Of a DNA stretch of 64,000 bases, positions 2,436 to 44,828 are shown in pieces. Made by a program: the position numbers and the translations under genes. The number at the start of each line of letters is the position of its first letter. Position 1 is the first letter of the stretch. Under the pieces are notes generated by a model. That model had not been told where the DNA came from, made no database searches, and saw only the letters and a list, made by a program, of their open reading frames with translations. Source of the stretch: Escherichia coli (GTDB taxonomy: Bacteria; Pseudomonadota; Gammaproteobacteria; Enterobacterales; Enterobacteriaceae); the NCBI RefSeq assembly GCF_003018255.1, contig NZ_CP027440.1, one strand, 5' to 3'.

Positions 2436-3200
2436 ATGGAAAATATAATGAACAATCCGGTTATCGGTGTCGTAATGTGCAGGAACAGGCTTAAGGGTCA
2501 TGCGACCCAGACTCTGCAAGAAAAGTACCTGAATGCCATCATCCACGCAGGCGGCTTGCCAATTGCGCTGCCACATGCGCTGGCGGAACCGTCATTACTT
2601 GAACAACTTTTGCCGAAACTCGATGGTATTTATCTTCCTGGTAGTCCCAGCAATGTGCAGCCGCACCTATATGGTGAAAACGGCGATGAGCCTGACGCCG
2701 ATCCCGGGCGTGATCTTCTGAGCATGGCGTTAATTAATGCCGCACTCGAAAGGCGCATCCCCATTTTCGCCATCTGCCGGGGTTTACAGGAACTGGTGGT
2801 GGCAACCGGTGGTTCGTTGCATCGCAAGCTGTGCGAACAGCCTGAATTGCTGGAACATCGGGAAGATCCCGAACTGCCGGTGGAGCAGCAATATGCGCCG
2901 TCGCATGAAGTTCTGGTTGAAGAGGGGGGATTACTGTCTGCGTTGTTACCTGAATGTAGCAACTTTTGGGTAAACTCTCTGCATGGACAAGGGGCGAAGG
3001 TCGTTAGCCCACGGTTGCGTGTTGAAGCTCGCTCGCCGGATGGCTTAGTTGAGGCGGTTAGCGTCATCAATCATCCTTTTGCGCTGGGCGTACAGTGGCA
3101 CCCGGAATGGAACAGTAGCGAGTACGCGCTTTCGCGTATATTGTTCGAGGGCTTTATCACCGCTTGTCAGCACCATATCGCTGAAAAACAGCGACTCTGA
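2436..3200 (+). CDS. puuD: Gamma-glutamyl-gamma-aminobutyrate hydrolase
   Basis: ORF 2424..3200; ATG at 2436 gives MENIMNNPVIGVVMCRNRL, the recalled PuuD N-terminus (254 aa); class I glutamine amidotransferase-like. Confidence 0.9.
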   Translation: MENIMNNPVIGVVMCRNRLKGHATQTLQEKYLNAIIHAGGLPIALPHALAEPSLLEQLLPKLDGIYLPGSPSNVQPHLYGENGDEPDADPGRDLLSMALINAALERRIPIFAICRGLQELVVATGGSLHRKLCEQPELLEHREDPELPVEQQYAPSHEVLVEEGGLLSALLPECSNFWVNSLHGQGAKVVSPRLRVEARSPDGLVEAVSVINHPFALGVQWHPEWNSSEYALSRILFEGFITACQHHIAEKQRL

Positions 3201-3226
3201 CCACTACAGTTTAAGGAAATGCAAAT

Positions 3227-3784
3227 ATGAGTGATGAGGGACTGGCGCCAGGAAAACGCTTGTCGGAAATCCGCCAGCAGCAGGGGCTTTCACAACGTCG
3301 TGCCGCCGAACTCTCCGGGCTGACTCACAGTGCTATCAGTACGATAGAACAAGATAAAGTCAGCCCTGCCATCAGTACGCTGCAAAAGCTGCTGAAGGTG
3401 TATGGTCTGTCACTCTCGGAATTCTTTTCCGAGCCGGAAAAACCTGATGAGCCGCAGGTCGTCATTAATCAGGACGACTTAATTGAGATGGGCAGTCAGG
3501 GTGTGTCAATGAAGCTGGTTCATAACGGTAACCCGAATCGCACGCTGGCGATGATCTTTGAAACGTACCAGCCGGGCACAACCACTGGGGAAAGAATTAA
3601 GCATCAGGGTGAGGAAATAGGCACTGTACTGGAAGGTGAAATTGTTCTGACGATTAATGGTCAGGATTATCATCTCGTCGCGGGGCAAAGTTATGCCATT
3701 AATACCGGCATCCCGCACAGTTTCAGTAATACGTCGGCAGGTATTTGCCGAATTATCAGCGCCCATACGCCCACCACGTTTTAA
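3227..3784 (+). CDS. puuR: HTH-type transcriptional repressor PuuR (XRE HTH + cupin)
   Basis: 185-aa ORF; HTH segment LSQRRAAELSGLTHSAISTIEQ; synteny inside the puu cluster. Confidence 0.9.
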   Translation: MSDEGLAPGKRLSEIRQQQGLSQRRAAELSGLTHSAISTIEQDKVSPAISTLQKLLKVYGLSLSEFFSEPEKPDEPQVVINQDDLIEMGSQGVSMKLVHNGNPNRTLAMIFETYQPGTTTGERIKHQGEEIGTVLEGEIVLTINGQDYHLVAGQSYAINTGIPHSFSNTSAGICRIISAHTPTTF

Positions 3785-3933
3785 TCTTTTTGTTCTGTAA
3801 GCCGGGTAAGCGCAATGTGCCCGGCAATCCATAAAGAATGTCGCCAGAAATAAACGGGCATGCGGCCCGGGGATCTCTGCGCCCTGACGTTCACAAACTG
3901 CATATATCTGATAGACGTGAAACAGGAGTCATA

Positions 3934-5421
3934 ATGAATTTTCATCATCTGGCTTACTGGCAGGATAAAGCGTTAAGTCTCGCCATTGAAACCCGCTTAT
4001 TTATTAACGGTGAATATACTGCTGCGGCGGAAAATGAAACTTTTGAAACCGTTGATCCGGTCACCCAGGCACCGCTGGCGAATATTGCCCGCGGCAAGAG
4101 CGTCGATATTGACCGTGCGGTGAGCGCAGCACGCGGCGTGTTTGAACGTGGCGACTGGTCACTCTCTTCTCCGGCTAAGCGTAAAGCGGTGCTGAATAAA
4201 CTCGCCGATTTAATGGAAGCTAACGCTGAAGAACTGGCGCTGCTGGAAACGCTCGACACCGGCAAACCGATTCGTCACAGCCTGCGTGATGATATTCCCG
4301 GCGCGGCGCGCGCCATTCGCTGGTACGCCGAGGCTATCGACAAAGTGTATGGCGAAGTGGCGACCACCAGTAGCCATGAGCTGGCGATGATCATGCGTGA
4401 ACCGGTCGGCGTGATTGCCGCCATCGTGCCGTGGAACTTCCCGCTGCTGCTGACTTGCTGGAAACTCGGCCCGGCGCTGGCGGCGGGAAACAGCGTGATC
4501 CTAAAACCGTCTGAAAAATCACCGCTCAGTGCGATTCGTCTCGCGGGGCTGGCGAAAGAAGCGGGGCTGCCGGATGGTGTGTTGAACGTGGTGACGGGTT
4601 TTGGTCATGAAGCCGGGCAGGCGCTTTCGCGCCATAACGATATCGATGCCATTGCCTTTACTGGCTCAACCCGCACCGGGAAACAGCTGCTGAAGGACGC
4701 GGGCGACAGCAACATGAAACGCGTCTGGCTGGAAGCGGGCGGCAAAAGCGCCAACATCGTTTTCGCCGACTGCCCGGATTTGCAACAGGCGGCAAGCGCC
4801 ACCGCCGCAGGCATTTTCTACAACCAGGGCCAGGTGTGCATCGCCGGAACGCGTTTGTTGCTAGAAGAGAGCATCGCCGATGAATTCTTAGCCCTGTTAA
4901 AACAGCAGGCGCAAAACTGGCAGCCGGGCCATCCACTTGATCCCGCAACCACCATGGGCACCTTAATCGACTGCGCCCACGCCGACTCGGTCCATAGCTT
5001 TATTCGGGAAGGCGAAAGCAAAGGGCAACTGCTGCTGGATGGCCGTAACGCCGAGCTGGCTGCCGCCATCGGCCCGACGATCTTTGTGGATGTAGACCCG
5101 AATGCGTCCTTAAGCCGCGAAGAGATTTTCGGTCCGGTGCTGGTGGTCACGCGTTTCACATCAGAAGAACAGGCGCTACAGCTTGCCAACGACAGCCAGT
5201 ACGGACTTGGCGCGGCGGTATGGACGCGCGACCTCTCCCGCGCGCACCGCATGAGTCGCCGCCTGAAAGCCGGCTCCGTCTTCGTCAATAACTACAACGA
5301 CGGCGATATGACCGTGCCGTTTGGCGGCTATAAGCAGAGCGGCAACGGGCGCGACAAATCCCTGCATGCCCTTGAAAAATTCACCGAACTGAAAACCATC
5401 TGGATAAGCCTGGAGGCCTGA
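3934..5421 (+). CDS. puuC: Gamma-glutamyl-gamma-aminobutyraldehyde dehydrogenase (aldehyde dehydrogenase family)
   Basis: ORF 3838..5421; start set at ATG 3934 (MNFHHLAYWQDKALSLAIETRLFINGEY), 495 aa; ALDH motifs, catalytic Cys in QGQVCIAG. Confidence 0.9.
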   Translation: MNFHHLAYWQDKALSLAIETRLFINGEYTAAAENETFETVDPVTQAPLANIARGKSVDIDRAVSAARGVFERGDWSLSSPAKRKAVLNKLADLMEANAEELALLETLDTGKPIRHSLRDDIPGAARAIRWYAEAIDKVYGEVATTSSHELAMIMREPVGVIAAIVPWNFPLLLTCWKLGPALAAGNSVILKPSEKSPLSAIRLAGLAKEAGLPDGVLNVVTGFGHEAGQALSRHNDIDAIAFTGSTRTGKQLLKDAGDSNMKRVWLEAGGKSANIVFADCPDLQQAASATAAGIFYNQGQVCIAGTRLLLEESIADEFLALLKQQAQNWQPGHPLDPATTMGTLIDCAHADSVHSFIREGESKGQLLLDGRNAELAAAIGPTIFVDVDPNASLSREEIFGPVLVVTRFTSEEQALQLANDSQYGLGAAVWTRDLSRAHRMSRRLKAGSVFVNNYNDGDMTVPFGGYKQSGNGRDKSLHALEKFTELKTIWISLEA

Positions 5422-5422
5422 A

Positions 5423-6703
5423 ATGACCGAACATACCAGCAGTTACTACGCCGCCAGTGCGAATAAATACGCGCCATTCGACACGCTGAATGAGTCGATT
5501 TCCTGCGACGTTTGCGTGGTCGGTGGCGGCTATACCGGGCTGTCTTCCGCGCTGCATCTGGCGGAAGCGGGCTTTGACGTGGTGGTTCTTGAAGCCTCAC
5601 GCATCGGCTTCGGCGCAAGCGGACGCAACGGCGGGCAGCTTGTGAACTCCTACAGCCGCGACATCGACGTCATTGAAAAAAGCTACGGCATGGACACCGC
5701 CCGTATGCTCGGCAGCATGATGTTCGAAGGCGGCGAGATCATCCGCGAACGTATCAAACGTTATCAGATTGACTGCGACTACCGCCCCGGCGGCCTGTTT
5801 GTGGCGATGAATGATAAACAGCTCGCGACTCTGGAAGAGCAGAAAGAGAACTGGGAACGCTACGGCAATAAACAGCTGGAGCTGCTGGACGCCAACGCTA
5901 TTCGCCGCGAGGTCGCCAGCGATCGCTACACTGGTGCGCTTCTGGATCACAGCGGTGGGCATATTCATCCGCTAAACCTCGCCATTGGCGAAGCGGACGC
6001 CATCCGCCTGAACGGAGGGCGCGTGTATGAGCTTTCTGCCGTGACGCAGATCCAGCACACCACGCCAGCCGTGGTGCGGACTGCCAATGGTCAGGTGACG
6101 GCGAAGTATGTGATTGTCGCCGGGAATGCGTATCTGGGCGATAAAGTAGAGCCGGAACTAGCGAAACGCAGCATGCCGTGCGGCACGCAGGTGATCACCA
6201 CCGAGCGGCTGTCGGAAGATTTAGCTCGTTCGCTGATCCCGAAAAACTACTGTGTGGAAGACTGTAACTATCTTCTTGATTACTACCGTCTTACCGCCGA
6301 TAACCGCCTGTTGTACGGCGGCGGCGTGGTCTACGGCGCACGCGACCCGGACGATGTTGAGCGCCTTGTGGTGCCGAAACTGCTGAAAACCTTCCCGCAA
6401 CTGAAGGGCGTGAAAATTGATTACCGCTGGACGGGCAACTTCCTGCTGACCCTGTCACGCATGCCGCAGTTTGGTCGCCTCGATACCAACATCTACTACA
6501 TACAGGGCTACAGCGGCCACGGCGTCACCTGTACCCACCTCGCCGGGCGTTTGATTGCTGAACTGCTGCGCGGTGACGCCGAGCGTTTCGACGCCTTCGC
6601 CAATCTGCCGCATTACCCGTTCCCCGGCGGGCGCACGCTGCGCGTTCCGTTTACCGCGATGGGCGCGGCTTATTACAGCCTGCGCGATCGTCTGGGCGTT
6701 TAA
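5423..6703 (+). CDS. puuB: Gamma-glutamylputrescine oxidoreductase (FAD-dependent)
   Basis: 426-aa ORF with N-terminal FAD-binding GxGxxG (VCVVGGGYTGLSSAL); starts 1 bp after the puuC stop. Confidence 0.9.
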   Translation: MTEHTSSYYAASANKYAPFDTLNESISCDVCVVGGGYTGLSSALHLAEAGFDVVVLEASRIGFGASGRNGGQLVNSYSRDIDVIEKSYGMDTARMLGSMMFEGGEIIRERIKRYQIDCDYRPGGLFVAMNDKQLATLEEQKENWERYGNKQLELLDANAIRREVASDRYTGALLDHSGGHIHPLNLAIGEADAIRLNGGRVYELSAVTQIQHTTPAVVRTANGQVTAKYVIVAGNAYLGDKVEPELAKRSMPCGTQVITTERLSEDLARSLIPKNYCVEDCNYLLDYYRLTADNRLLYGGGVVYGARDPDDVERLVVPKLLKTFPQLKGVKIDYRWTGNFLLTLSRMPQFGRLDTNIYYIQGYSGHGVTCTHLAGRLIAELLRGDAERFDAFANLPHYPFPGGRTLRVPFTAMGAAYYSLRDRLGV

Positions 6704-6740
6704 TTTCCGATTAACAGTGAAGAGTCAAAAGGTGTGAAAC

Positions 6741-8006
6741 ATGAGCAACAATGAATTCCATCAGCGTCGTCTTTCTGCTACCCCACGCGGGGTTGGCGTG
6801 ATGTGTAACTTCTTCGCCCAGTCGGCAGAAAACGCCACGCTGAAGGATGTAGAGGGCAACGAATATATCGATTTCGCCGCAGGCATTGCGGTACTGAATA
6901 CCGGGCATCGCCACCCTGATCTGGTCGCGGCGGTGGAACAGCAATTGCAACAGTTTACCCACACGGCGTATCAGATTGTGCCGTACGAAAGCTACGTCAC
7001 GCTGGCGGAGAAAATTAACGCCCTTGCCCCGGTGAGCGGGCAGGCTAAAACTGCGTTCTTCACCACCGGTGCGGAAGCGGTGGAGAACGCGGTGAAAATC
7101 GCCCGCGCCCATACCGGACGCCCTGGCGTGATTGCGTTTAGCGGCGGCTTCCACGGTCGTACATATATGACCATGGCGCTGACCGGAAAGGTCGCGCCGT
7201 ACAAAATCGGCTTCGGCCCGTTCCCCGGTTCGGTATATCACGTACCTTATCCGTCAGATTTACACGGCATTTCAACGCAGGACTCCCTCGACGCCATCGA
7301 ACGCTTGTTTAAATCGGACATTGAAGCGAAGCAGGTGGCGGCGATTATTTTCGAACCGGTTCAGGGCGAAGGCGGTTTCAACGTTGCGCCAAAAGAGCTG
7401 GTTGCCGCCATTCGCCGCCTGTGCGACGAGCACGGCATTGTGATGATTGCCGATGAAGTGCAAAGCGGCTTTGCGCGTACCGGTAAAATGTTTGCCATGG
7501 ATCACTACGCCGATAAGCCGGACTTAATGACGATGGCGAAAAGCCTCGCAGGCGGGATGCCGCTTTCGGGCGTGGTCGGTAACGCGAATATTATGGACGC
7601 GCCCGCGCCGGGCGGGTTGGGTGGTACCTACGCCGGGAACCCGCTGGCGGTGGCTGCCGCGCACGCTGTGCTCAACATTATCGACAAAGAATCACTCTGT
7701 GAACGCGCGAATCAACTGGGCCAGCGCCTGACAAACACGTTGATTGATGCCAAAGAAAGCGTTCCGGCCATCGCGGCGGTACGCGGTCTGGGGTCTATGA
7801 TTGCGGCAGAGTTTAACGATCCGCAAACGGGCGAGCCGTCAGCGGCGATTGCACAGAAAATCCAGCAACGCGCGCTGGCGCAGGGGCTGCTTCTGCTGAC
7901 CTGTGGCGCATACGGCAACGTGATTCGTTTCCTGTATCCGCTGACCATCCCGGATGCGCAATTCGATGCGGCAATGAAAATTTTGCAGGATGCGCTGAAC
8001 GATTAA
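6741..8006 (+). CDS. puuE: 4-aminobutyrate aminotransferase (PLP-dependent class III aminotransferase)
   Basis: 421-aa ORF; class III aminotransferase features; synteny. Confidence 0.9.
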   Translation: MSNNEFHQRRLSATPRGVGVMCNFFAQSAENATLKDVEGNEYIDFAAGIAVLNTGHRHPDLVAAVEQQLQQFTHTAYQIVPYESYVTLAEKINALAPVSGQAKTAFFTTGAEAVENAVKIARAHTGRPGVIAFSGGFHGRTYMTMALTGKVAPYKIGFGPFPGSVYHVPYPSDLHGISTQDSLDAIERLFKSDIEAKQVAAIIFEPVQGEGGFNVAPKELVAAIRRLCDEHGIVMIADEVQSGFARTGKMFAMDHYADKPDLMTMAKSLAGGMPLSGVVGNANIMDAPAPGGLGGTYAGNPLAVAAAHAVLNIIDKESLCERANQLGQRLTNTLIDAKESVPAIAAVRGLGSMIAAEFNDPQTGEPSAAIAQKIQQRALAQGLLLLTCGAYGNVIRFLYPLTIPDAQFDAAMKILQDALND

Positions 8007-11407: not shown

Positions 11408-13087
11408 ATGAAACAGAAAATTACGGATTACCTGGACGAAATCTACGGTGGAACATTTACCGCAACTCATTTACAGAAACTTGTAACGCGTCTTGAGAGT
11501 GCGAAACGATTAATTACACTGCGACGTAAAAAACACTGGGATGAAAGTGATGTCGTGTTAATCACCTATGCCGATCAATTTCACAGTAATGATTTAAAAC
11601 CACTACCCACATTTAATCAGTTTTACCCTCAATGGCTGCAAAGCATTTTTTCACATGTTCATTTATTACCTTTTTATCCATGGTCATCTGATGATGGCTT
11701 TTCGGTAATTGATTATCATCAGGTCGCCAGTGAAGCAGGGGAGTGGCAGGATATTCAGCAACTCGGTGATTGCAGTCATTTAATGTTTGATTTTGTCTGC
11801 AACCATATGTCGGCAAAAAGTGAATGGTTTAAAAACTATTTACAACAGCAGCCAGGTTTTGAAGATTTTTTTATTGCGGTTGATCCGCAAATCGATCTCA
11901 GCGCCGTCACCCGTCCGCGTGCGTTACCGTTATTAACGCCATTCCAGATGCGCGATAATTCAACGCGTCATTTATGGACCACCTTTAGCGACGATCAAAT
12001 TGACCTCAATTACCGTAGCCCTGAAGTGTTACTGGCGATGGTGGATGTTTTACTGTGTTACCTTGAGAAAGGTGCTGAGTATATCCGTCTGGATGCCGTT
12101 GGCTTTATGTGGAAAGAGCCGGGAACAAGCTGCATCCATCTGGAAAAAACACATCTGATTATCAAACTGTTACGGTCGATTATTGATAACGTTGCGCCAG
12201 GCACAGTGATCATTACCGAGACCAATGTTCCGCATATAGACAACATTGCTTACTTTGGCAACGGTGATGACGAAGCGCATATGGTGTACCAGTTCTCGCT
12301 GCCGCCGCTGGTGCTGCATGCGGTGCAAAAACAGAACGTTGAGGCACTTTGTGCGTGGGCGCAAAACCTGACACTACCTTCCAGCAACACCACCTGGTTT
12401 AACTTCCTTGCCTCTCACGATGGCATCGGGCTTAACCCACTGCGGGGGTTGTTGCCCGAAAACGAAATATTAGCGCTGGTCGAGGTGTTACAGCAGGAAG
12501 GGGCATTAGTAAACTGGAAAAATAATCCCGACGGTACGCGTAGCCCCTATGAAATGAATGTCACCTATATGGATGCGTTGAGCCGCCGTGAGTGTAGCGA
12601 CGAAGAACGGTGTGCCAGGTTTATTCTCGCCCATGCGATTTTGTTAAGTTTCCCCGGTGTGCCAGCGATATATATTCAAAGCATTCTGGGGTCGCGTAAT
12701 GATTACGCAGGTGTCGAAAAACTTGGATATAATCGTGCGATTAACCGTAAAAAATACTCTAGTAAAGAGATAACGACAGAACTGAACAATAAAGCGACAT
12801 TAAGGTATTTGATATATTATAAGTTGTCGCATTTAATTACACTTCGTCGCAGTCATAAAGAGTTTCATCCGGATAATAATTTCACCATTGATGCGATTAA
12901 TTCATTTGTAATGCGAATTCAAAGAAGCAATGCGGATGGCGATTGCCTGACGGGATTGTTTAATGTCAGTGAAAATATTCAGCATATAAATATTACTGAC
13001 CTGCACGGTCGGGATCTGATTAGTGAAGTTGATATATTGGGTAATGAAATAACACTGCATCCCTGGCAGGTTATGTGGATTAAATAA
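11408..13087 (+). CDS. ycjM: Glucosylglycerate phosphorylase (GH13_18 sucrose-phosphorylase-like)
   Basis: ORF 11381..13087; ATG at 11408 gives MKQKITDYLDEIYGG (559 aa); GH13 features. Confidence 0.85.
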   Translation: MKQKITDYLDEIYGGTFTATHLQKLVTRLESAKRLITLRRKKHWDESDVVLITYADQFHSNDLKPLPTFNQFYPQWLQSIFSHVHLLPFYPWSSDDGFSVIDYHQVASEAGEWQDIQQLGDCSHLMFDFVCNHMSAKSEWFKNYLQQQPGFEDFFIAVDPQIDLSAVTRPRALPLLTPFQMRDNSTRHLWTTFSDDQIDLNYRSPEVLLAMVDVLLCYLEKGAEYIRLDAVGFMWKEPGTSCIHLEKTHLIIKLLRSIIDNVAPGTVIITETNVPHIDNIAYFGNGDDEAHMVYQFSLPPLVLHAVQKQNVEALCAWAQNLTLPSSNTTWFNFLASHDGIGLNPLRGLLPENEILALVEVLQQEGALVNWKNNPDGTRSPYEMNVTYMDALSRRECSDEERCARFILAHAILLSFPGVPAIYIQSILGSRNDYAGVEKLGYNRAINRKKYSSKEITTELNNKATLRYLIYYKLSHLITLRRSHKEFHPDNNFTIDAINSFVMRIQRSNADGDCLTGLFNVSENIQHINITDLHGRDLISEVDILGNEITLHPWQVMWIK

Positions 13088-17224: not shown

Positions 17225-18013
17225 ATGAAAATCGGCACACAGAATCAGGCGTTCTTTCCGGAAAACATTCTGGAGAAATTTCGTTATATCAAAGAGATGG
17301 GTTTCGATGGTTTTGAGATCGACGGCAAACTGCTGGTCAACAATCTCGAAGAAGTCAAAGCAGCAATCAAAGAAACCGGTTTACCGGTGATCACCGCCTG
17401 CGGTGGCTATGACGGTTGGATTGGCGACTTTATCGAAGAGCGTCGACTTAATGGCTTAAAGCAGATCGAACGCATTCTTGAAGCTCTGGCAGAAGTGGGC
17501 GGTAAAGGTATCGTCGTTCCGGCTGCATGGGGCATGTTTACCTTCCGCTTACCGCCGATGACCTCGCCGCGTAGCCTGGACGGCGACCGCAAAATGGTGA
17601 GTGATTCCCTGCGCGTACTGGAAAAGGTGGCCGCATGTACCGGAACCGTGGTGTACCTCGAACCGTTAAACCGTTATCAGGATCACATGATCAACACCCT
17701 CGCCGATGCCCGCCGTTACATCGTCGAAAACGATCTTAAACATGTACAGATTATCGGCGATTTCTATCACATGAATATCGAAGAAGATAACCTGGCGCAG
17801 GCGCTGCATGACAACCGCGACCTGCTCGGTCATGTGCATATTGCCGATAACCATCGCTACCAGCCGGGCAGCGGCACCCTGGATTTCCACGCGCTGTTTG
17901 AACAGCTGCGCGCGGATAACTATCAGGGCTATGTGGTGTATGAAGGGCGTATCCGGGCAGAAAATCCTGCCCAGGCGTACCGTGATTCGTTGGCCTGGTT
18001 GCGCACCTGCTAA
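17225..18013 (+). CDS. ycjR: Sugar phosphate isomerase/epimerase (xylose-isomerase-like TIM barrel)
   Basis: 262-aa ORF; synteny. Confidence 0.85.
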   Translation: MKIGTQNQAFFPENILEKFRYIKEMGFDGFEIDGKLLVNNLEEVKAAIKETGLPVITACGGYDGWIGDFIEERRLNGLKQIERILEALAEVGGKGIVVPAAWGMFTFRLPPMTSPRSLDGDRKMVSDSLRVLEKVAACTGTVVYLEPLNRYQDHMINTLADARRYIVENDLKHVQIIGDFYHMNIEEDNLAQALHDNRDLLGHVHIADNHRYQPGSGTLDFHALFEQLRADNYQGYVVYEGRIRAENPAQAYRDSLAWLRTC

Positions 18014-18022
18014 GAGGTCTTT

Positions 18023-19078
18023 GTGAAAAGTGCAATGACAAGCTCTCCGCTGCGTGTCGCGATAATCGGCGCAGGCCAGGTGGCGGATAATGTTCATGCT
18101 TCGTACTACTGCACCCGCAACGATCTGGAACTGGTGGCTGTCTGTGACAGCCGCCTTTCCCAGGCGCAGGCGCTGGCAGAAAAATACGGGAATGCATCCG
18201 TGTGGGACGATCCGCAGGCCATGCTGCTGGCGGTGAAACCTGATGTGGTTAGCGTCTGCTCACCTAACCGTTTTCATTACGAACATACCCTGATGGCGCT
18301 GGAAGCGGGCTGCCATGTGATGTGCGAAAAACCGCCCGCCATGACGGCAGAACAGGCGCGGGAAATGTGCGATACCGCGCGCAAACAGGGCAAGGTGCTG
18401 GCCTACGACTTTCATCATCGTTTTGCACTCGATACGCAACAGCTGCGTGAACAGGTGACCAACGGCGTTTTGGGAGAGATTTACGTTACCACCGCCCGCG
18501 CCCTGCGTCGTTGCGGTGTTCCCGGCTGGGGTGTCTTTACTAATAAAGAATTGCAGGGCGGAGGCCCGCTGATCGACATCGGCATTCATATGCTGGATGC
18601 GGCGATGTATGTGCTGGGTTTTCCAGCGGTGAAAAGCGTGACTGCGCATAGCTTTCAAAAGATCGGCACGCAAAAGAGCTGCGGTCAATTTGGCGAGTGG
18701 GACCCGGCAACCTACAGCGTCGAAGATTCGCTGTTTGGCACCATTGAATTTCATAACGGCGGCATTCTGTGGCTTGAGACCTCATTTGCACTCAACATCC
18801 GCGAACAGTCGATTATGAACGTCAGCTTTTGTGGTGATAAAGCCGGGGCGACGCTGTTTCCAGCACATATCTACACCGATAACAACGGTGAGTTAATGAC
18901 GCTGATGCAACGGGAAATGGCAGACGACAACCGTCATCTGCGCAGTATGGAAGCCTTTATCAACCACGTACAAGGTAAGCCCGTGATGATAGCCGACGCC
19001 GAGCAGGGATACATCATCCAGCAACTGGTGGCGGCGCTTTATCAATCCGCAGAAACAGGGACGCGTGTGGAATTATGA
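18023..19078 (+). CDS. ycjS: Gfo/Idh/MocA-family NAD-dependent oxidoreductase
   Basis: 351-aa ORF with N-terminal Rossmann (VAIIGAGQVADN); GTG/ATG start region. Confidence 0.85.
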   Translation: MKSAMTSSPLRVAIIGAGQVADNVHASYYCTRNDLELVAVCDSRLSQAQALAEKYGNASVWDDPQAMLLAVKPDVVSVCSPNRFHYEHTLMALEAGCHVMCEKPPAMTAEQAREMCDTARKQGKVLAYDFHHRFALDTQQLREQVTNGVLGEIYVTTARALRRCGVPGWGVFTNKELQGGGPLIDIGIHMLDAAMYVLGFPAVKSVTAHSFQKIGTQKSCGQFGEWDPATYSVEDSLFGTIEFHNGGILWLETSFALNIREQSIMNVSFCGDKAGATLFPAHIYTDNNGELMTLMQREMADDNRHLRSMEAFINHVQGKPVMIADAEQGYIIQQLVAALYQSAETGTRVEL

Positions 19079-40156: not shown

Positions 40157-40317
40157 TTTTAACATCTTTTTAGGGAGCAAGTAAGTCTAAGCAAACCTTA
40201 ACAGCAGAGAATTCCGATATTAGATGTAAATATATGTCTATCTATTTGAAAACCCTTAAGTTGTTAAGGGTAACTTTACATAAAAGTGTGAACAAGCTGG
40301 CACAAATTGTTTAATGT

Positions 40318-40833
40318 TTACAGCAAAAGATAACCTTCGTGGCGCAATAACCACTCTTTTCGCTGAACTCCGCCTGCATATCCGGTCATGGTGCCGTTTC
40401 GGCCAATAACCCGATGGCAAGGTACAACAATGCTGATGGGATTCGATCCGTTAGCCGCACCAACGGCACGCGCCGCGCCTGGGCGGCCTAATTGTTCAGC
40501 CAGTTGGCCATAATGCATTACCTGCCCGCAGGGGATAGTGCGCAGTGTTTTCCAGACTTCGCGCTGAAATGGCGTCCCCCCCGTGGCAGTGGGAAGCGTA
40601 TCAATAATGCTAAGATTACCGGCAAAATATTCACGAAGCTTGTCGCTTAAACCACCTGGGTTGGTGGCAGAAATGCGCTCATAGCCTTCTTTGCGATAAT
40701 GGATGTCCAGCAGCTGCACCATGCGTTCGCTGTACTCTTCCCATTCAACCGCCCGCAGGCGAAATTGCTCATCGCAAATCACCCACAGTGGACCCAGTGG
40801 CGTGGCAATTTTTTCTTCAAGTAATCTCAGCAT
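40318..40833 (-). CDS. ogt: Methylated-DNA--protein-cysteine methyltransferase
   Basis: 171-aa ORF with active-site motif VPCHRVIG. Confidence 0.92.
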
Positions 40834-40843
40834 CCGTTCTCTC

Positions 40844-41047
40844 TTAAGACAAACGTGGGTAAATACCCGGACCTATCGGCAGACCGACAAGATACCACGC
40901 CAGCAACATCAGCAGCCATACCACCAAAAAGATAAGCGGATAGGGCAAGACTAACGAATAGTAAGTACCCAGTTTCGCGTCTGGTTTGTCGCAGTCTGAT
41001 AGCATAAAGCGATTTTTTGATTTTTCTGCCTGAAGAAATGAGGGCAA
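40844..41047 (-). pseudogene. abgT: Probable 3' remnant of abgT (p-aminobenzoyl-glutamate transporter), last about 67 codons
   Basis: Hydrophobic TM-like 67-aa ORF ending 10 bp upstream of the ogt start, in the position and orientation of the K-12 abgT 3' end; no room for a full abgT upstream because mcaS follows at 41211. Confidence 0.4.
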
Positions 41048-41210
41048 GCCATCACATGGATCGAGGGTGGGATAATTCCAGTCAGCGAAATTTTACCGTA
41101 GGCTATCTGTTATTTGATTCTGTGGCGTGATAGCCGCCAGACACCACTGATCTCGTCACTCATTCCCCAATCCCGGCGAGAATGTGGTTATTTACAGAGC
41201 TAAAAAATGA

Positions 41211-41306
41211 ATAAAAAAATAGAGCCTGTCGACATCCGCCAGACTCTACAGTACACACAGCAGTGCATCCTCGTCTTAAATCCGGCCTGGGGTCCTGGTG
41301 ACCGGT
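41211..41306 (-). ncRNA. mcaS: McaS (IsrA) small regulatory RNA
   Basis: Minus-strand sequence ACCGGTCACCAGGACCCCAGGCCGGATTTAAGACGAGGATGCACTGCTGTGTGTACTGTAGAGTCTGGCGGATGTCGACAGGCTCTATTTTTTTAT matches recalled McaS, including GGA motifs and a terminator hairpin with U-tract. Confidence 0.8.
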
Positions 41307-41376
41307 GACAGTGTTATAACGGTTTTACCCATCCGTTGCCAATTTTCTTCAGTGACAGATTTCACGAAAATATAAG

Positions 41377-42192
41377 TTAAATCATTTGCCTTGTGATTGC
41401 ATAATCATGCATCGTTAATCGACGAGTAAATTTACCGGGCGAGTAGCCCGTTCGACGCTTAAACATATTGCCGAACGATTCAGCTGAGGCATAGCCCAGA
41501 CGATGGGCAATTTTGGTCAACGAATATCCATCATCAAGAAGCGTCACTGCAGAAATAACGTGCATTTGCTGAACCCAGTGGCGAAATGTTAATCCCGTCT
41601 CTTTAACAAATAAGCGCATGAGTGTACGGCTACTGACGTTAATTTTATCCGCTAGATTATCCAGTGTTGGCAGATACCCTTGGTTGTTTAGCAAATTCTC
41701 ACAAAGCTGCTGTAGCCGCTCATCATTTGGCCAAGGGAGTTCAAGTGACATTTTCACCCCCATTTTTATTTCCTGAAGTATCAGTGTCTCGAGGGCTGAA
41801 AAACGTAACTGTTGTTTATCTGTGGTACTTTGCGACGGTGGAAGTTGGTTAATTGCAATTAGTAATTCTCTTAACAGGGGTGAAATACCCGTCATGAAGC
41901 AAACTTTTCCCAGCGTTTCACTTTCCGCTTCTGAAACCAGTACGGTTTTTAAAAGTACGTTGCCTGTCGCAACAAACTTATGCGGCATTTGTGGGGGCAG
42001 CCAAAGCGCGCTGCTGGCATGCACTAGCCAGACGCTTTCTCCAGCCCATAGACGAACGACTCCTTCAGCCGGGTAAAGCAACTGGGCATAGAGATGTTTA
42101 TGCCAGGGAACTGTGCCTCCATTCAGATGTTCCGAATCCAGTCCGATAATGTGATGCCCTGGTGATGCTTTGGGTTGCAGTGTGATTGTCAT
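41377..42192 (-). CDS. AraC/XylS-family transcriptional regulator (cupin-like N-domain + double HTH)
   Basis: 271-aa ORF; C-terminal AraC HTH region (...SRTLMRLFVKETGLTFRHWVQQMHV...LGYASAESFGNMFKRRTGYSPGKF); divergent from the efflux genes. Confidence 0.8.
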   Translation of the reverse strand: MTITLQPKASPGHHIIGLDSEHLNGGTVPWHKHLYAQLLYPAEGVVRLWAGESVWLVHASSALWLPPQMPHKFVATGNVLLKTVLVSEAESETLGKVCFMTGISPLLRELLIAINQLPPSQSTTDKQQLRFSALETLILQEIKMGVKMSLELPWPNDERLQQLCENLLNNQGYLPTLDNLADKINVSSRTLMRLFVKETGLTFRHWVQQMHVISAVTLLDDGYSLTKIAHRLGYASAESFGNMFKRRTGYSPGKFTRRLTMHDYAITRQMI

Positions 42193-42285
42193 TTACAGTA
42201 GGTATTTTGTCAGAAATCATCAAATAAGCCATGTTAAATTTTAAATATGGCGAATGCAAGTTTCCGGATATATACGGTGTAAAGA

Positions 42286-43317
42286 GTGATGATAATTTCT
42301 AAAAAACAGCTTATTGGGGTAGTAGCGATCGGTATTATTTTGGCTGGCGTTGTCTTTTTTATCTGGTGGGTAAGCAAAGGAAGATTTATACAGACGACGG
42401 ATGATGCTTACATTGGTGGTAATATTACCACGGTGGCAAGTAAAGTTTCTGGTTATATTTCTGCTATAGAGGTGCGTGATAATCAGAGCGTAAAAAAAGG
42501 CGATATTATCCTGCGTCTCGATGATCGGGATTATCGTGCAAATGTCGCCAGGCTTGAGGCAAAAATAAAAAGTAGAAAAGCCAATCTCGAAAGCATTCAA
42601 GCCACTATTACGATGCAGCAGTCGATAATTCAAAGTGCCAGTGAAACATGGCAGGCAGTAAAACATGAGGAGCAAAAGCGCCTGCGAGATACTGAACGTT
42701 ATGAAAAACTCGTACAATCAGCGGCAATATCGCAGCAAATTATTGATAACGCCAGGTTTGACTACCAGCAGGTCGCAGCAAAGGAGCGCAAAGCCGCGAA
42801 CGATTTCCTGGTGGAGAAGCAACGGCTGGCAGTTTTATCTGCTCAGGAAGAAAACGTACGTGCGAGTATCGAAGAAGTTCAGGCCGCTTTGACTCAGGCA
42901 CTACTGGATCTGGAATATACCCTTGTTCGTGCGCCGATTGATGGCATTGTCGCAAACCGCAGCGCCCATACAGGCAGTTGGGTGGAAGGCGGCACATCGT
43001 TAGTTTCACTTGTACCAGTCAGTGAGTTGTGGGTTGATGCAAATTATAAAGAAAACCAAATAGCGGGAATGAAGCCAGGAATGAAGGCTGAGATCCGTGC
43101 TGATATTCTCAAAGGGGAAGTGTTTCACGGTCACATTGAAAGCCTTTCCCCAGCGACAGGAGCCAGTTTCAGCTTGATTCCGATAGAAAATGCCACTGGC
43201 AATTTCACCAAAATTGTTCAGCGTGTCCCGGTACGGATTGCATTTGACGACGCAAAGGAATTAAAGCAACTTCTTCGCCCGGGACTGTCCGTCACCGTCA
43301 GTGTCGATGAGAGATGA
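42286..43317 (+). CDS. HlyD-family membrane fusion protein (EmrA-like periplasmic adaptor)
   Basis: 343-aa ORF with N-terminal TM anchor (VAIGIILAGVVFFIWW), coiled coil, and HlyD motifs (GDIILRLDDRDY ... LEYTLVRAPIDGIV). Confidence 0.8.
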   Translation: MMIISKKQLIGVVAIGIILAGVVFFIWWVSKGRFIQTTDDAYIGGNITTVASKVSGYISAIEVRDNQSVKKGDIILRLDDRDYRANVARLEAKIKSRKANLESIQATITMQQSIIQSASETWQAVKHEEQKRLRDTERYEKLVQSAAISQQIIDNARFDYQQVAAKERKAANDFLVEKQRLAVLSAQEENVRASIEEVQAALTQALLDLEYTLVRAPIDGIVANRSAHTGSWVEGGTSLVSLVPVSELWVDANYKENQIAGMKPGMKAEIRADILKGEVFHGHIESLSPATGASFSLIPIENATGNFTKIVQRVPVRIAFDDAKELKQLLRPGLSVTVSVDER

Positions 43318-44828
43318 TGTCTATGCGTAAACATATTGCTTTCGCCAGTATGTGTATGGGATTATTTATTGCTCAGCTTGATATTCAAATTGTATCGTCA
43401 TCCCTAAATGAAATAGGTGGTGGTCTGTCCGCAGGTAAAGACGAAATGGCCTGGCTTCAGACCAGCTATTTAATTGCTGAGATTATTGTTATTCCGCTCT
43501 CTGGGTGGCTGTCACGGGTATTTTCCACTCGTTGGCTTTTTACTCTATCCGCGGGAATATTTACTTTAATGAGTATCGCGTGTGGACTTGCATGGAATAT
43601 TCAGATCATGATTTTGTTTCGTGCTTTACAGGGAGCGGCTGGCGCATCCATGATCCCTTTAGTTTTCACGACGGCGTTTATTTATTACCAGGGTAAAGAG
43701 TTGGGGTCGGCTGCTGCGGTAGTCAGTGCGCTGGCCTCACTGTCACCGACGCTAGGGCCAACTCTGGGGGGCTGGATCACTGATAACCTCGACTGGCGAT
43801 GGCTATTTTATATCAATATATTACCTGGCATATATTTAGTTTTGAGTATTCCTTTTCTGGTTAATTTTGATAAACCTGATCTCTCTTTACTGAAAGTTGC
43901 TGATTATCCGAGTATTATCCTGTTGGCCATGACACTGGGATGTCTGGAATATACCCTTGAAGAAGGAGCGCGCTGGGGATGGCTGGATGATAATACTATT
44001 TTGCTGACATCAGTTCTGGCATTGGTGAGTTTTATTTTATTTGCTGCGCGTACACTTACAATATCCAATCCGATAATGGATCTTCATGCTTTTAAGGATA
44101 AAAATTTCACGCTGGGATGTTTTTTTTCTTTTTCTGGAGGGGTTGGGATATTCTCTACTGTATATTTAATACTTGTGTTTTTGGGGCAGGTTCGCGGATT
44201 AAATGCCGAAGAGATAGGTTTTGCCGTTTGCACAACAGGTATTTTCCAGTTATTTTCTGTTCCCTTTTACTTCTGGTTAAGTAAAAAAATAAATCTGCGA
44301 TGGCTGTTGATGGCGGGGCTGGGTGGATTTGTGTTTTCAATGTATCTTTTTACCCCTATAACCCACGAATGGGGATGGCAGGAGTTACTGTTTCCACAGG
44401 CAATTAGAGGGATTTCGCAGCAGTTTGCGATGGCCCCCATCGTAACATTAACGCTGGGGGGAATTCCAAAGGAACGGCTGAAGTTAGCCTCTGGTGTATT
44501 TAATTTAACACGTAATCTTGGGGGCGCGATTGGTATTGCCCTGTGTGGCTCTATTCTCAATAATCGAACTAATTTTCATTTTTCGAGAATGGGTGAAAAA
44601 ATGGTTTCTGTTCCCCATACGGTGAATGACTTCATTTCCAGAAGTGCTTTGTTTTTTAATCGCAGTGGAAGTGACCAGACATCGGAAATACTGGCTTCAA
44701 CCAAATTATTGAGTCAGTTGATGCTGAGGGAGGCGCAAACTATGGCATTTTCGGATACCTTTCTGCTAATCAGTGGTCTGTTATTTATCGCATTTTTGTT
44801 GGTTCCTGCTATGAATAAATCATCCTGA
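43314..44828 (+). CDS. MFS transporter, DHA2 (EmrB/QacA-like, about 14 TMS) drug/metabolite exporter
   Basis: 504-aa polytopic ORF overlapping the HlyD stop by 4 nt; MFS signature region (GWLSRVFSTRW ... LFRALQGAAGASMIP). Confidence 0.8.
   Translation: MMSMRKHIAFASMCMGLFIAQLDIQIVSSSLNEIGGGLSAGKDEMAWLQTSYLIAEIIVIPLSGWLSRVFSTRWLFTLSAGIFTLMSIACGLAWNIQIMILFRALQGAAGASMIPLVFTTAFIYYQGKELGSAAAVVSALASLSPTLGPTLGGWITDNLDWRWLFYINILPGIYLVLSIPFLVNFDKPDLSLLKVADYPSIILLAMTLGCLEYTLEEGARWGWLDDNTILLTSVLALVSFILFAARTLTISNPIMDLHAFKDKNFTLGCFFSFSGGVGIFSTVYLILVFLGQVRGLNAEEIGFAVCTTGIFQLFSVPFYFWLSKKINLRWLLMAGLGGFVFSMYLFTPITHEWGWQELLFPQAIRGISQQFAMAPIVTLTLGGIPKERLKLASGVFNLTRNLGGAIGIALCGSILNNRTNFHFSRMGEKMVSVPHTVNDFISRSALFFNRSGSDQTSEILASTKLLSQLMLREAQTMAFSDTFLLISGLLFIAFLLVPAMNKSS

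What the first reader, a model, noticed from the sequence alone, without database searches (positions are those of the whole stretch)
40844..41306. abgABT-abgR appears deleted, leaving an abgT 3' stub fused near mcaS
Only about 370 bp separate the ogt start (40833) from the 3' end of mcaS (41211). In K-12 this interval holds abgT, abgB, abgA and abgR (about 5.5 kb, from memory). The 67-codon hydrophobic ORF abutting ogt has the position, strand and transporter-like sequence expected of the abgT C-terminus. This suggests an internal deletion that removed p-aminobenzoyl-glutamate utilisation and left ogt without its upstream operon promoter.
Basis: partly seen in the sequence, partly recalled or inferred. 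Interest (0 to 1): 0.4.

Follow-up and report, generated by a model that had tools for sequence, protein, structure and literature searches.

The report
Old, common abg operon deletion
This E. coli carries a well-known, ancient 5-kb deletion that removed the genes for using a folate breakdown product, but it left the neighbouring DNA-repair gene ogt with its own promoter intact, so it is an ordinary strain-group difference rather than a new feature.

Summary
Between ogt (40318-40833, -) and the sRNA gene mcaS (41211-41306, -) there are 377 bp where K-12-type E. coli has about 5.4 kb (abgT-abgB-abgA-abgR). A single deletion of about 5,040 bp has its junction at 40989-40992.

It left two pieces:
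- The last 149 nt of abgT. The last 47 codons match K-12 AbgT exactly.

The ogt inference is mostly wrong. The characterised NarL/Fis-controlled ogt promoter lies wholly inside the retained abgT stub. The inferred start site is about 40882, with NarL sites at -44.5 and -77.5. The junction is at -107 to -110. Only possible read-through from the abgA promoter is lost.

The allele is not private. The same junction and remnant type occur in 1,172 of 5,426 complete E. coli genomes, including Nissle, ST131 and APEC O18. It also occurs in Escherichia ruysiae. Absence of abgAR from phylogroup B2 was published in 2009.

The abgR remnant is only about 77% identical to intact abgR, while its flanks are 97-99% identical. 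The best reading is an old allele that moved between Escherichia lineages, with the stub later overwritten by recombination. E. albertii, E. fergusonii and one Enterobacter species also lack the operon, through different junctions.

Verdict: already known, low interest.

The parts
40318..40833 (-). ogt, O6-alkylguanine-DNA alkyltransferase, intact (171 aa)
   Evidence: ORF. RefSeq annotation of the near-identical locus L001. Homologues carry PF02870 and PF01035.
40834..40882 (-). inferred ogt 5' UTR (49 nt); transcription start about 40882
   Evidence: The start is inferred from the published -10 hexamer TATCTT (PMC7419079), found at 40894..40889. It is supported by both NarL sites then falling at the published distances. 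It was not measured in this strain.
40889..40967 (-). ogt core promoter and both NarL 7-2-7 sites: -10 at 40889-40894, NarL II at 40919-40934 (-44.5), NarL I at 40952-40967 (-77.5)
   Evidence: The two best matches to TACYYMTNNAKRRGTA in 40834-41060 (10 of 14 each) are centred at exactly -44.5 and -77.5. The architecture is that of PMC7419079. The sequence is K-12-like here, without the 12-bp deletion.
40844..40992 (-). abgT 3' stub: last 149 nt of a 1,527-nt gene, a pseudogene fragment
   Evidence: 98.7% identical to K-12 abgT 2311-2460 of L003. The last 47 codons are identical. NF008459 profile positions 461-508 of 508 only. PGAP annotates it in L001 as 'AbgT family transporter, incomplete'.
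40989..40992 (.). deletion junction (...GGTTTGT|CG|CAGTCTG...); about 5,040 bp missing relative to the intact locus
   Evidence: blastn break at window 40992, joining L002 2460 to 7501. Alignments. The junction is identical in six other E. coli and two E. ruysiae loci. There is no IS element and no long repeat. At most a 3-nt TGT microhomology is present in the intact sequences.
40844..41047 (-). 67-codon chimeric ORF: 20 junction-derived codons (antisense of the abgR remnant) plus 47 AbgT C-terminal codons; probably not a gene
   Evidence: Most of the ORF lies upstream of the inferred ogt start site, and no promoter was identified for it. The frame nevertheless stays open in all haplotypes examined.
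40992..41203 (+). abgR 3' remnant (last 212 of 909 nt), decayed: frameshifts and in-frame stops; about 77% identical to intact abgR
   Evidence: Alignment. 48 differences in 212 aligned sites, three indels, stop codons in the abgR frame. PGAP annotates it in L001 as 'LysR family ... frameshifted; internal stop; incomplete'.
41211..41306 (-). mcaS (IsrA) small RNA gene, intact
   Evidence: Rfam RF00115, 112.8 bits, model positions 1-96 of 96.
41377..44828 (.). context, not part of the deletion: AraC-family regulator (41377-42192, -), EmrA-like adaptor (42286-43317, +) and DHA2/EmrB-like MFS pump (43314-44828, +), inserted between mcaS and smrA
   Evidence: Absent from K-12. Present in E. ruysiae.

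Best explanation
The interval is the scar of one old illegitimate deletion of about 5,040 bp.

What it removed:
- codons 1 to about 459 of abgT
- all of abgB and abgA
- the divergent abgA/abgR promoter region
- the first 695 nt of abgR

This abolished uptake and hydrolysis of p-aminobenzoyl-glutamate and its regulator.

What remains is non-functional debris, namely the abgT stub and the decayed abgR 3' end, except that the stub doubles as the ogt promoter. The -10 element, both NarL sites (the upstream one is overlapped by a published Fis site) and the 5' UTR all sit in the last ~110 nt of abgT and are intact. ogt should therefore still be nitrate/NarL-inducible. mcaS is untouched.

The allele is a standing presence/absence polymorphism. 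It is typical of phylogroup B2 and is shared with E. ruysiae.

Shown: the deletion, its endpoints, the remnants, the population frequency, the shared junction, and the sequence-level integrity of the promoter.
Inferred: the loss of phenotype, and continued NarL-dependent ogt expression.
For: - Endpoints were mapped by blastn and alignment.
- Stub identity.
- Remnant decay.
- The ogt-abgT-abgB-abgA-abgR order is ancestral. In 31 of the outgroup loci returned by the AbgR scan (Enterobacter, Klebsiella, Raoultella, Citrobacter, Lelliottia, Leclercia and others) Ogt is encoded close to the locus, and where both positions were mapped ogt starts about 10-15 nt after the abgT stop. abgR is followed by an mcaS-like sequence in many of them.
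- Of the remnant's differences from intact abgR, 36 are derived on the remnant branch, 6 are ancestral and 16 are ambiguous.
- The same junction is seen in every carrier examined.
- 1,172 of 5,426 complete genomes carry the remnant type. 4,192 carry at least 80% of the deleted segment.
- Promoter elements lie at the published spacing inside the stub.
- abgAR is listed as absent from B2 strains in PMC2617782, Table 5.
Against: - No expression data exist for this strain. The ogt start site is inferred from K-12 work.
- The two bases 'CG' at the junction match neither parent exactly, so the exact breakpoint is ambiguous within 40989-40992.
- Whether K-12 ogt gets a meaningful share of its transcription from the abgA promoter was not established. 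Some quantitative effect on ogt cannot be excluded.
Confidence: 0.92

Rival explanations
1. The deletion allele, together with the AraC/EmrAB-like island to its right, did not arise within the E. coli lineage. It entered a B2-type ancestor by homologous recombination from a diverged Escherichia lineage related to E. ruysiae. In the window's haplotype a later recombination with an intact-abg donor overwrote ogt and most of the stub. This refines the best explanation rather than replacing it. It accounts for the abgR remnant being about 23% diverged from intact abgR while the stub is 98.7% identical to intact abgT.
For: - Remnant against intact abgR: 48 differences in 212 sites.
- E. ruysiae has the same junction and the same remnant type.
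- Window against E. ruysiae, left of the junction: third-codon-position identity is 75.6% for ogt, 79.2% for uspE and 87.6% for fnr.
- Window against E. ruysiae, right of the junction: the remnant is 93.0% identical, and third positions are 94.1% (AraC), 88.1% (adaptor) and 92.3% (MFS).
- The E. ruysiae remnant is 77.7% identical to intact E. coli abgR. That is about the neutral between-species divergence seen in ogt and uspE.
- The 12-bp stub deletion is shared by E. ruysiae, ST95/ST73-type E. coli and probably E. albertii. It is absent from the window, whose stub is K-12-like to within about 20 nt of the junction.
- Outgroup AbgT proteins all keep the four residues, so the 12-bp absence is a deletion.
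- VTB96935v shows a recombination breakpoint inside the remnant.
Against: - Only two E. ruysiae genomes were examined, and no E. marmotae or clade I genomes.
- Third-position identity is a crude neutral yardstick, and fnr is intermediate.
- The direction of transfer is inferred from parsimony only.
- An ancient polymorphism kept since before speciation, with later exchange, fits most of the same numbers.
Confidence: 0.5
2. The deletion is native to E. coli. The abgR remnant reached about 23% divergence by unusually fast in-place decay (relaxed selection plus locally raised mutation). The stub stayed conserved only because it is the ogt promoter.
For: - Changes are biased GC to AT (25 against 14), and GC falls from 49.5% to 44.7%.
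- Most changes are derived on the remnant branch.
- The divergence starts at the junction and ends at the abgR stop codon.
- The stub carries known regulatory sites.
Against: - Remnant alleles within E. coli differ by 2.3% or less apart from indels. The long branch therefore predates their spread.
- The E. ruysiae copy shares most of the changes.
- Codon positions are not uniform: 17, 8 and 23 at positions 1, 2 and 3 (chi-square 7.1, p about 0.03, my calculation). Part of the divergence therefore arose under coding constraint.
- Carriers of the ST95/ST73 type have a clearly more diverged stub, so stub conservation in the window is not universal.
Confidence: 0.12
3. The short arrangement is ancestral, and K-12-type strains gained abgABT-abgR by insertion.
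For: E. ruysiae, E. albertii and E. fergusonii all lack the operon. A scan of one genome per species found no Escherichia locus with an intact abgR.
Against: - The window holds truncated internal pieces of abgT and abgR, which can only come from complete genes.
- The full ogt-abgTBA-abgR order is conserved across many enterobacterial genera at divergence levels normal for vertical descent (AbgR 74-83% amino-acid identity).
- E. albertii and E. fergusonii carry their own abgT and abgR or mcaS fragments with different junctions.
Confidence: 0.02
4. Assembly or sequencing artefact: a collapsed region.
For: None found.
Against: The identical junction is present in over a thousand independently finished genomes and in another species.
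Confidence: 0.01

Closest known systems
B2-specific absence of the abg (p-aminobenzoyl-glutamate) genes reported by Touchon et al. 2009 (PMC2617782, Table 5)
   Same: The same genes are missing. Carriers found here include strains I recognise from memory as B2: Nissle 1917 (EcN), the ST131 strain JJ2434, APEC O18 and MP1.
   Different: In the text retrieved, the paper lists only gene absence (abgAR). It does not give the junction, the remnants, the retained ogt promoter, or the sharing with E. ruysiae. The window's own phylogroup was not determined here.
E. coli K-12 abgR / abgABT-ogt locus (intact state; loci L002 and L003)
   Same: The flanks ogt, fnr and uspE on one side, and mcaS on the other, are collinear and 97-99% identical.
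   Different: 5,040 bp are absent. K-12 also lacks the AraC/EmrAB-like island to the right of mcaS.
NarL/Fis-regulated ogt promoter (Squire et al. 2009; Ruanto et al. 2020, PMC7419079)
   Same: The -10 is TATCTT, with an extended -10 TG. The tandem 7-2-7 NarL sites sit at -44.5 and -77.5, and the sequence is K-12-like.
   Different: Here the DNA upstream of about -108 is abgR debris instead of abgT coding sequence. Other carriers (ST95/ST73 type, E. ruysiae) have a 12-bp deletion between the NarL sites. That deletion matches the '~10 bp deletion in some pathogenic E. coli' noted in the paper.
Independent abg losses in E. albertii, E. fergusonii and Enterobacter quasihormaechei
   Same: The operon is gone, and a piece of the abgT 3' end is kept next to ogt.
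   Different: The junctions and the retained lengths differ. E. albertii keeps about 18 nt more of abgR and less of abgT. E. fergusonii keeps an estimated ~75 nt of stub, read by eye, and half of mcaS. E. quasihormaechei keeps 168 nt of abgT.

Membership tests
AbgT family transporter (NCBIfam NF008459 / Pfam PF03806) | Full-length protein of about 508 aa covering the whole profile and scoring above the curated cut-off | tested here: not met
   The 67-aa ORF matches only profile positions 461-508 of 508, with 88.8 bits against a cut-off of 864. Only 149 nt of the 1,527-nt gene remain. It is a gene fragment, not a family member.
AbgT family transporter (NCBIfam NF008459 / Pfam PF03806) | Sequence derived from abgT at the orthologous position, immediately upstream of ogt on the same strand | tested here: met
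   98.7% nucleotide identity to the K-12 abgT 3' end. 47 of 47 C-terminal residues are identical. The 10-nt spacing to ogt is the same.
LysR-type regulator AbgR | Intact reading frame with an N-terminal helix-turn-helix and a C-terminal effector domain (302 aa) | tested here: not met
   Only the last 212 of 909 nt remain, with two 1-nt deletions, one 1-nt insertion and in-frame stops. PGAP annotates it as a pseudogene.
McaS/IsrA sRNA (Rfam RF00115) | Full-length match to the covariance model above the gathering score | tested here: met
   112.8 bits against 42, model positions 1-96 of 96, not truncated.
NarL-dependent ogt promoter (PMC7419079) | -10 hexamer TATCTT with two 7-2-7 NarL sites centred at -44.5 and -77.5 | tested here: met
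   TATCTT lies at 40894..40889. The two best 7-2-7 matches in the region are centred at exactly -44.5 and -77.5 from the inferred start at 40882.
NarL-dependent ogt promoter (PMC7419079) | Nitrate- and NarL-dependent transcription initiation; Fis repression | not testable with these tools
   Needs reporter fusions, 5'-RACE or RNA-seq in a carrier strain.
B2-type abg deletion allele (this junction) | Junction ...GGTTTGTCGCAGTCTG... joining abgT nt ~1379 to abgR nt ~696, followed by the diverged remnant | tested here: met
   The junction is identical in ExPEC XM, EC8, SK1144, VTB96935v, A25, 2012C-4227 and two E. ruysiae genomes. 1,172 genomes carry the remnant type.
IS- or repeat-mediated deletion | An IS element, its scar, or direct repeats of 8 nt or more at the two breakpoints with one copy retained | tested here: not met
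   No IS sequence is present at the junction. Both copies of the nearby 7-nt GTCTGGT motif are retained, so it did not mediate the deletion. At most a 3-nt TGT microhomology is present (read from the alignments).

The most novel reading that the evidence does not exclude
The abg deletion in B2-type E. coli is a trans-species allele. It arose in, or before, a cryptic-clade lineage related to E. ruysiae. It then crossed into E. coli together with the adjacent AraC/EmrAB-like island. Since then it has been reshaped by recombination, which in some lineages (including this window) restored a K-12-type ogt promoter.

More generally, abg has been lost repeatedly in Escherichia and Enterobacter. Each loss examined here spared at least the part of the abgT 3' end nearest ogt. 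In E. coli, E. ruysiae and E. quasihormaechei the retained stub (about 150-170 nt) is long enough to cover the whole mapped promoter. This would be an example of a promoter embedded in an upstream gene constraining where deletions can end.
Probability: 0.45. Interest if true: 0.4.

Novelty: already known. Interest (0 to 1): 0.22.

Why it matters
- For annotation, the locus should be read as two pseudogene fragments plus an intact ogt promoter. It is neither a small membrane-protein gene nor a promoterless ogt.
- For biology, carriers cannot salvage p-aminobenzoyl-glutamate through Abg. Carriers make up about a fifth of sequenced E. coli, and those recognised here include major extraintestinal pathogens and the probiotic Nissle.
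- ogt promoter architecture differs among carriers. Some have K-12-like tandem NarL sites; others have the 12-bp-deleted form. This could change nitrate-dependent protection against alkylation damage.
- The sharp contrast in divergence across the junction is a compact local record of recombination between Escherichia lineages.

Tried and rejected
1. Search for intact abgR alleles resembling the remnant in 5,426 E. coli genomes. None was found. Identities are bimodal: 1,172 genomes at 80% or more, all of them remnants or recombinant remnants, and 4,196 at 74-76%. The one 'intermediate', VTB96935v at 89.7%, is a recombinant remnant and not an intact gene.

2. Test whether the remnant matches abgR of another genus. 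It does not. It is further from 31 outgroup alleles (55% mean identity) than intact E. coli abgR is (67%).

3. Scan of one genome per species with AbgR, to obtain other Escherichia loci. It returned no Escherichia.

4. Exact look-up of FNR to reach other species. It returned only E. coli, at about 99% identity.

5. Selection on the remnant. The 93% identity between the E. coli and E. ruysiae remnants first looked like conservation. It equals the third-position identity of the adjacent island genes, so it needs no selection.

6. Consensus promoter and terminator scan of 40700-41500. It found nothing beyond chance expectation. It does not detect the weak, activator-dependent ogt promoter.

7. 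Permissive Rfam scan of 40700-41500. It found only mcaS and one sub-threshold chance hit.

8. Repeat- or IS-mediated mechanism. Rejected from the junction sequence.

Full report
**What is there**

The window carries uspE, fnr and ogt (40318-40833, - strand). A 377-bp gap follows, then the small RNA gene mcaS (41211-41306, - strand; Rfam RF00115, 112.8 bits, full length). Next come an AraC-family regulator, an EmrA-like adaptor and a DHA2/EmrB-like MFS pump.

**The deletion and its endpoints**

- megablast of 40300-42300 against 5,426 complete E. coli genomes gave 1,142 genomes with the same contiguous arrangement. In the others the match broke at window position 40992.
- I used two references:
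  - L002 has ogt, abgT, abgB, abgA and abgR, and the same right flank as the window.
  - L003 is a K-12 isolate.
- blastn maps window 40300-40992 to L002 1768-2460 at 97.0% identity.
- It maps window 40992-42300 to L002 7501-8810.
- The missing piece is therefore L002 ~2461-7500, about 5,040 bp. It comprises the first ~1,378 nt of abgT, all of abgB and abgA, the abgA/abgR intergenic region, and the first 695 nt of abgR.
- The junction reads ...GGTTTGT-CG-CAGTCTG... at 40989-40992.
- There is no IS sequence and no long repeat at the junction. At most a 3-nt TGT is shared by the two parental sites.

**The two remnants**

- The abgT stub is 149 nt and 98.7% identical to K-12.
  - The last 47 residues of the 67-aa ORF are identical to the K-12 AbgT C-terminus. 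The first 20 residues come from the junction and from the antisense strand of abgR debris.
  - The ORF hits the AbgT equivalog profile only at positions 461-508 of 508.
Window 40992-41203 is the last 212 nt of abgR, on the + strand.
  - It differs from intact abgR at 48 of 212 aligned sites.
  - It has three 1-nt indels and in-frame stop codons.
  - RefSeq annotates both fragments as pseudogenes in the near-identical locus L001.

**Direction of change**

The short state is derived.
- Thirty-one of the outgroup loci from other enterobacterial genera have Ogt encoded close to the locus. Where both positions were mapped, ogt starts about 10-15 nt after the abgT stop. abgR is followed by an mcaS-like sequence in many of them.
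- At sites where the remnant differs from intact E. coli abgR, the outgroups agree with the intact allele at 36 sites. They agree with the remnant at 6, and 16 are ambiguous.

**ogt keeps its promoter**

- The ogt promoter has been dissected experimentally. It has a -10 hexamer TATCTT, an extended -10, and two 7-2-7 NarL sites at -44.5 and -77.5. A Fis site overlaps the upstream NarL site (PMC7419079).
- On the ogt strand, TATCTT lies at 40894..40889, preceded by TG. This puts the start at about 40882.
- With that start, the two best matches to the NarL 7-2-7 consensus in the whole 40834-41060 region are centred at exactly -44.5 (40934..40919) and -77.5 (40967..40952).
- The deletion junction is at -107 to -110.
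- The complete published promoter therefore sits inside the retained stub, and its sequence here is K-12-like.
- The statement that ogt was left without a promoter is not supported. What is lost is any read-through from the abgA promoter, and I could not find evidence on how much that matters.
- One consequence is inferred only. mcaS now lies 377 bp upstream of ogt on the same strand, so terminator read-through could reach ogt.

**How common it is**

- The remnant sequence is found at 80% identity or more in 1,172 of 5,426 genomes. The other 4,196 with a hit have intact abgR at 74-76% identity to it. Nothing intact lies in between.
- 4,192 genomes hold at least 80% of the deleted 5,040 bp.
- Carriers include EcN (Nissle 1917), JJ2434, APEC O18 and MP1. 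I recognise these from memory as phylogroup B2.
- Touchon et al. 2009 already list abgAR among functions absent from B2 strains (PMC2617782, Table 5).
- All six other carrier loci I aligned have the identical junction, so this was one event.
- Later changes distinguish haplotypes:
  - a 12-bp deletion in the stub between the two NarL sites (ExPEC XM, EC8, A25, VTB96935v);
  - a 20-bp deletion in the remnant (EC8, A25);
  - a recombinant remnant in VTB96935v, whose right half is K-12-like.

**The odd contrast across the junction**

- The stub is 98.7% identical to intact abgT. The remnant is about 77% identical to intact abgR. mcaS and the genes to the right are again about 99% identical to those of L002.
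- Remnant alleles within E. coli differ by 2.3% or less apart from indels. The long branch therefore predates their spread.
- The substitutions are GC-to-AT biased (25 against 14). They fall 17, 8 and 23 on codon positions 1, 2 and 3. This is not uniform (chi-square 7.1, p about 0.03, my calculation). It suggests a mix of change under coding constraint and neutral decay.

**Other Escherichia species**

- A scan of one genome per species with AbgR found no Escherichia locus at all.
- Through Ogt and DgcM homologues I retrieved loci from three species.
- E. ruysiae has the same junction, the same remnant type, the 12-bp stub deletion, and the AraC/EmrAB-like island.
- E. albertii lacks abgABT but has a different junction. 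It keeps about 18 nt more of abgR and less of abgT. It also has a further internal gap of about 114 nt.
- E. fergusonii has only 194 bp between smrA and ogt. Read by eye, this holds roughly 75 nt of decayed stub and half of mcaS.
- Enterobacter quasihormaechei has yet another independent deletion, which keeps 168 nt of abgT.

**Likely history (inferred)**

- Between the window and E. ruysiae, third-codon-position identity to the left of the junction is 75.6% for ogt, 79.2% for uspE and 87.6% for fnr.
- To the right of the junction:
  - the remnant is 93.0% identical;
  - third positions are 94.1% (AraC), 88.1% (adaptor) and 92.3% (MFS).
- The right block, including the remnant, therefore shares a much more recent ancestor between the two species than the left block does.
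- The E. ruysiae remnant is 77.7% identical to intact E. coli abgR. That is about the neutral between-species divergence seen in ogt and uspE.
- The simplest reading has three parts:
  - The deletion arose in, or before, a lineage related to E. ruysiae.
  - It entered a B2-type E. coli ancestor by recombination.
  - In the window's haplotype, a later exchange with an intact-abg donor replaced ogt and most of the stub, ending within about 20 nt of the junction.
- Outgroup AbgT proteins all keep the four residues encoded by the 12 bp. The 12-bp-deleted stub is therefore derived.
- Because that stub is shared with E. ruysiae, it is probably the original state of the deletion allele.
- I give this model about 0.5. 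Faster in-place decay, or a polymorphism older than the species, are not excluded.

**Verdict**

abgR is not fully gone, and ogt keeps its promoter. The feature is a known lineage-typical gene loss, which RefSeq already annotates as pseudogene fragments. Interest is low. The only mildly new points are the exact scar anatomy, its sharing with E. ruysiae, and the repeated losses that kept at least part of the abgT 3' end next to ogt.

Noticed in passing
window 41377-44828: A three-gene island lies between mcaS and smrA: an AraC-family regulator, an EmrA-like adaptor (TIGR00998) and a DHA2/EmrB-like MFS pump (TIGR00711). It is absent from K-12, VTB96935v and E. albertii, and present in E. ruysiae. 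The pump gene is intact here (504 aa) but is annotated as frameshifted in L001, L002 and A25.
   Followed up: partly
L004, L005, L008, L009 and L053 (corresponds to window 40934-40945): A 12-bp deletion lies between the two NarL sites of the ogt promoter in ST95/ST73-type carriers and in E. ruysiae. It moves NarL I about 12 bp closer and changes the first base of NarL II. It matches the variant mentioned in PMC7419079. The window does not have it.
   Followed up: partly
L008 (E. coli VTB96935v) 7001-7213: This is a recombinant abgR remnant. The left half is remnant-type and the right half is K-12-type. It is followed directly by smrA, with no island. It shows a homologous recombination breakpoint inside the pseudogene.
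   Followed up: partly
L050 (Enterobacter quasihormaechei) 6849-7328: An independent abg deletion in another genus. 168 nt of the abgT 3' end are kept next to ogt, joined to decayed abgR pieces and an mcaS-like sequence.
   Followed up: partly
L065 (E. albertii) 11828-12542; L066 (E. fergusonii) 17886-18079: Both species lack abgABT-abgR, with junctions that differ from the E. coli/E. ruysiae one. E. fergusonii also lacks the 5' half of mcaS and has a pca-like (beta-ketoadipate) gene cluster between dgcM and smrA.
   Followed up: partly
window 40844-41100 and the matching stretch of L004-L010, L053, L065: The abgT-frame reading frame through the stub and past the junction stays open in every deletion haplotype examined, including E. 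ruysiae and E. albertii. I did not test whether this is chance or a sign of a translated small hydrophobic peptide.
   Followed up: no
L003 (K-12 isolate FW1541) 1185-2311: An IS5 copy sits directly next to abgT, and ogt, fnr and uspE are missing. From memory, this resembles the IS5-associated fnr-region deletion known in some MG1655 stocks.
   Followed up: no
protein P0150: A 572-aa protein annotated as an M20 metallo-hydrolase is 99% identical to DgcM over 96% of the query and also carries a peptidase M20 domain. It is seen on 8 contigs. It looks like a dgcM::abg peptidase fusion made by another deletion in this neighbourhood.
   Followed up: no
L007 3195-3892; hits H213 and H190; L002 13114-13811: IS insertions recur in and around the locus:
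- IS1 in the abgR 3' end of strain F637
- IS1203 in abgT of O157 strain TT12B
- IS4 in the remnant of FDAARGOS_943
- IS1 in dgcM of L002
   Followed up: no
L048 (Corynebacterium lipophiloflavum scaffold, 203 bp): A 203-bp scaffold encodes AbgR residues 166-232 at 100% identity to E. coli. It is probably contamination of that assembly.
   Followed up: no
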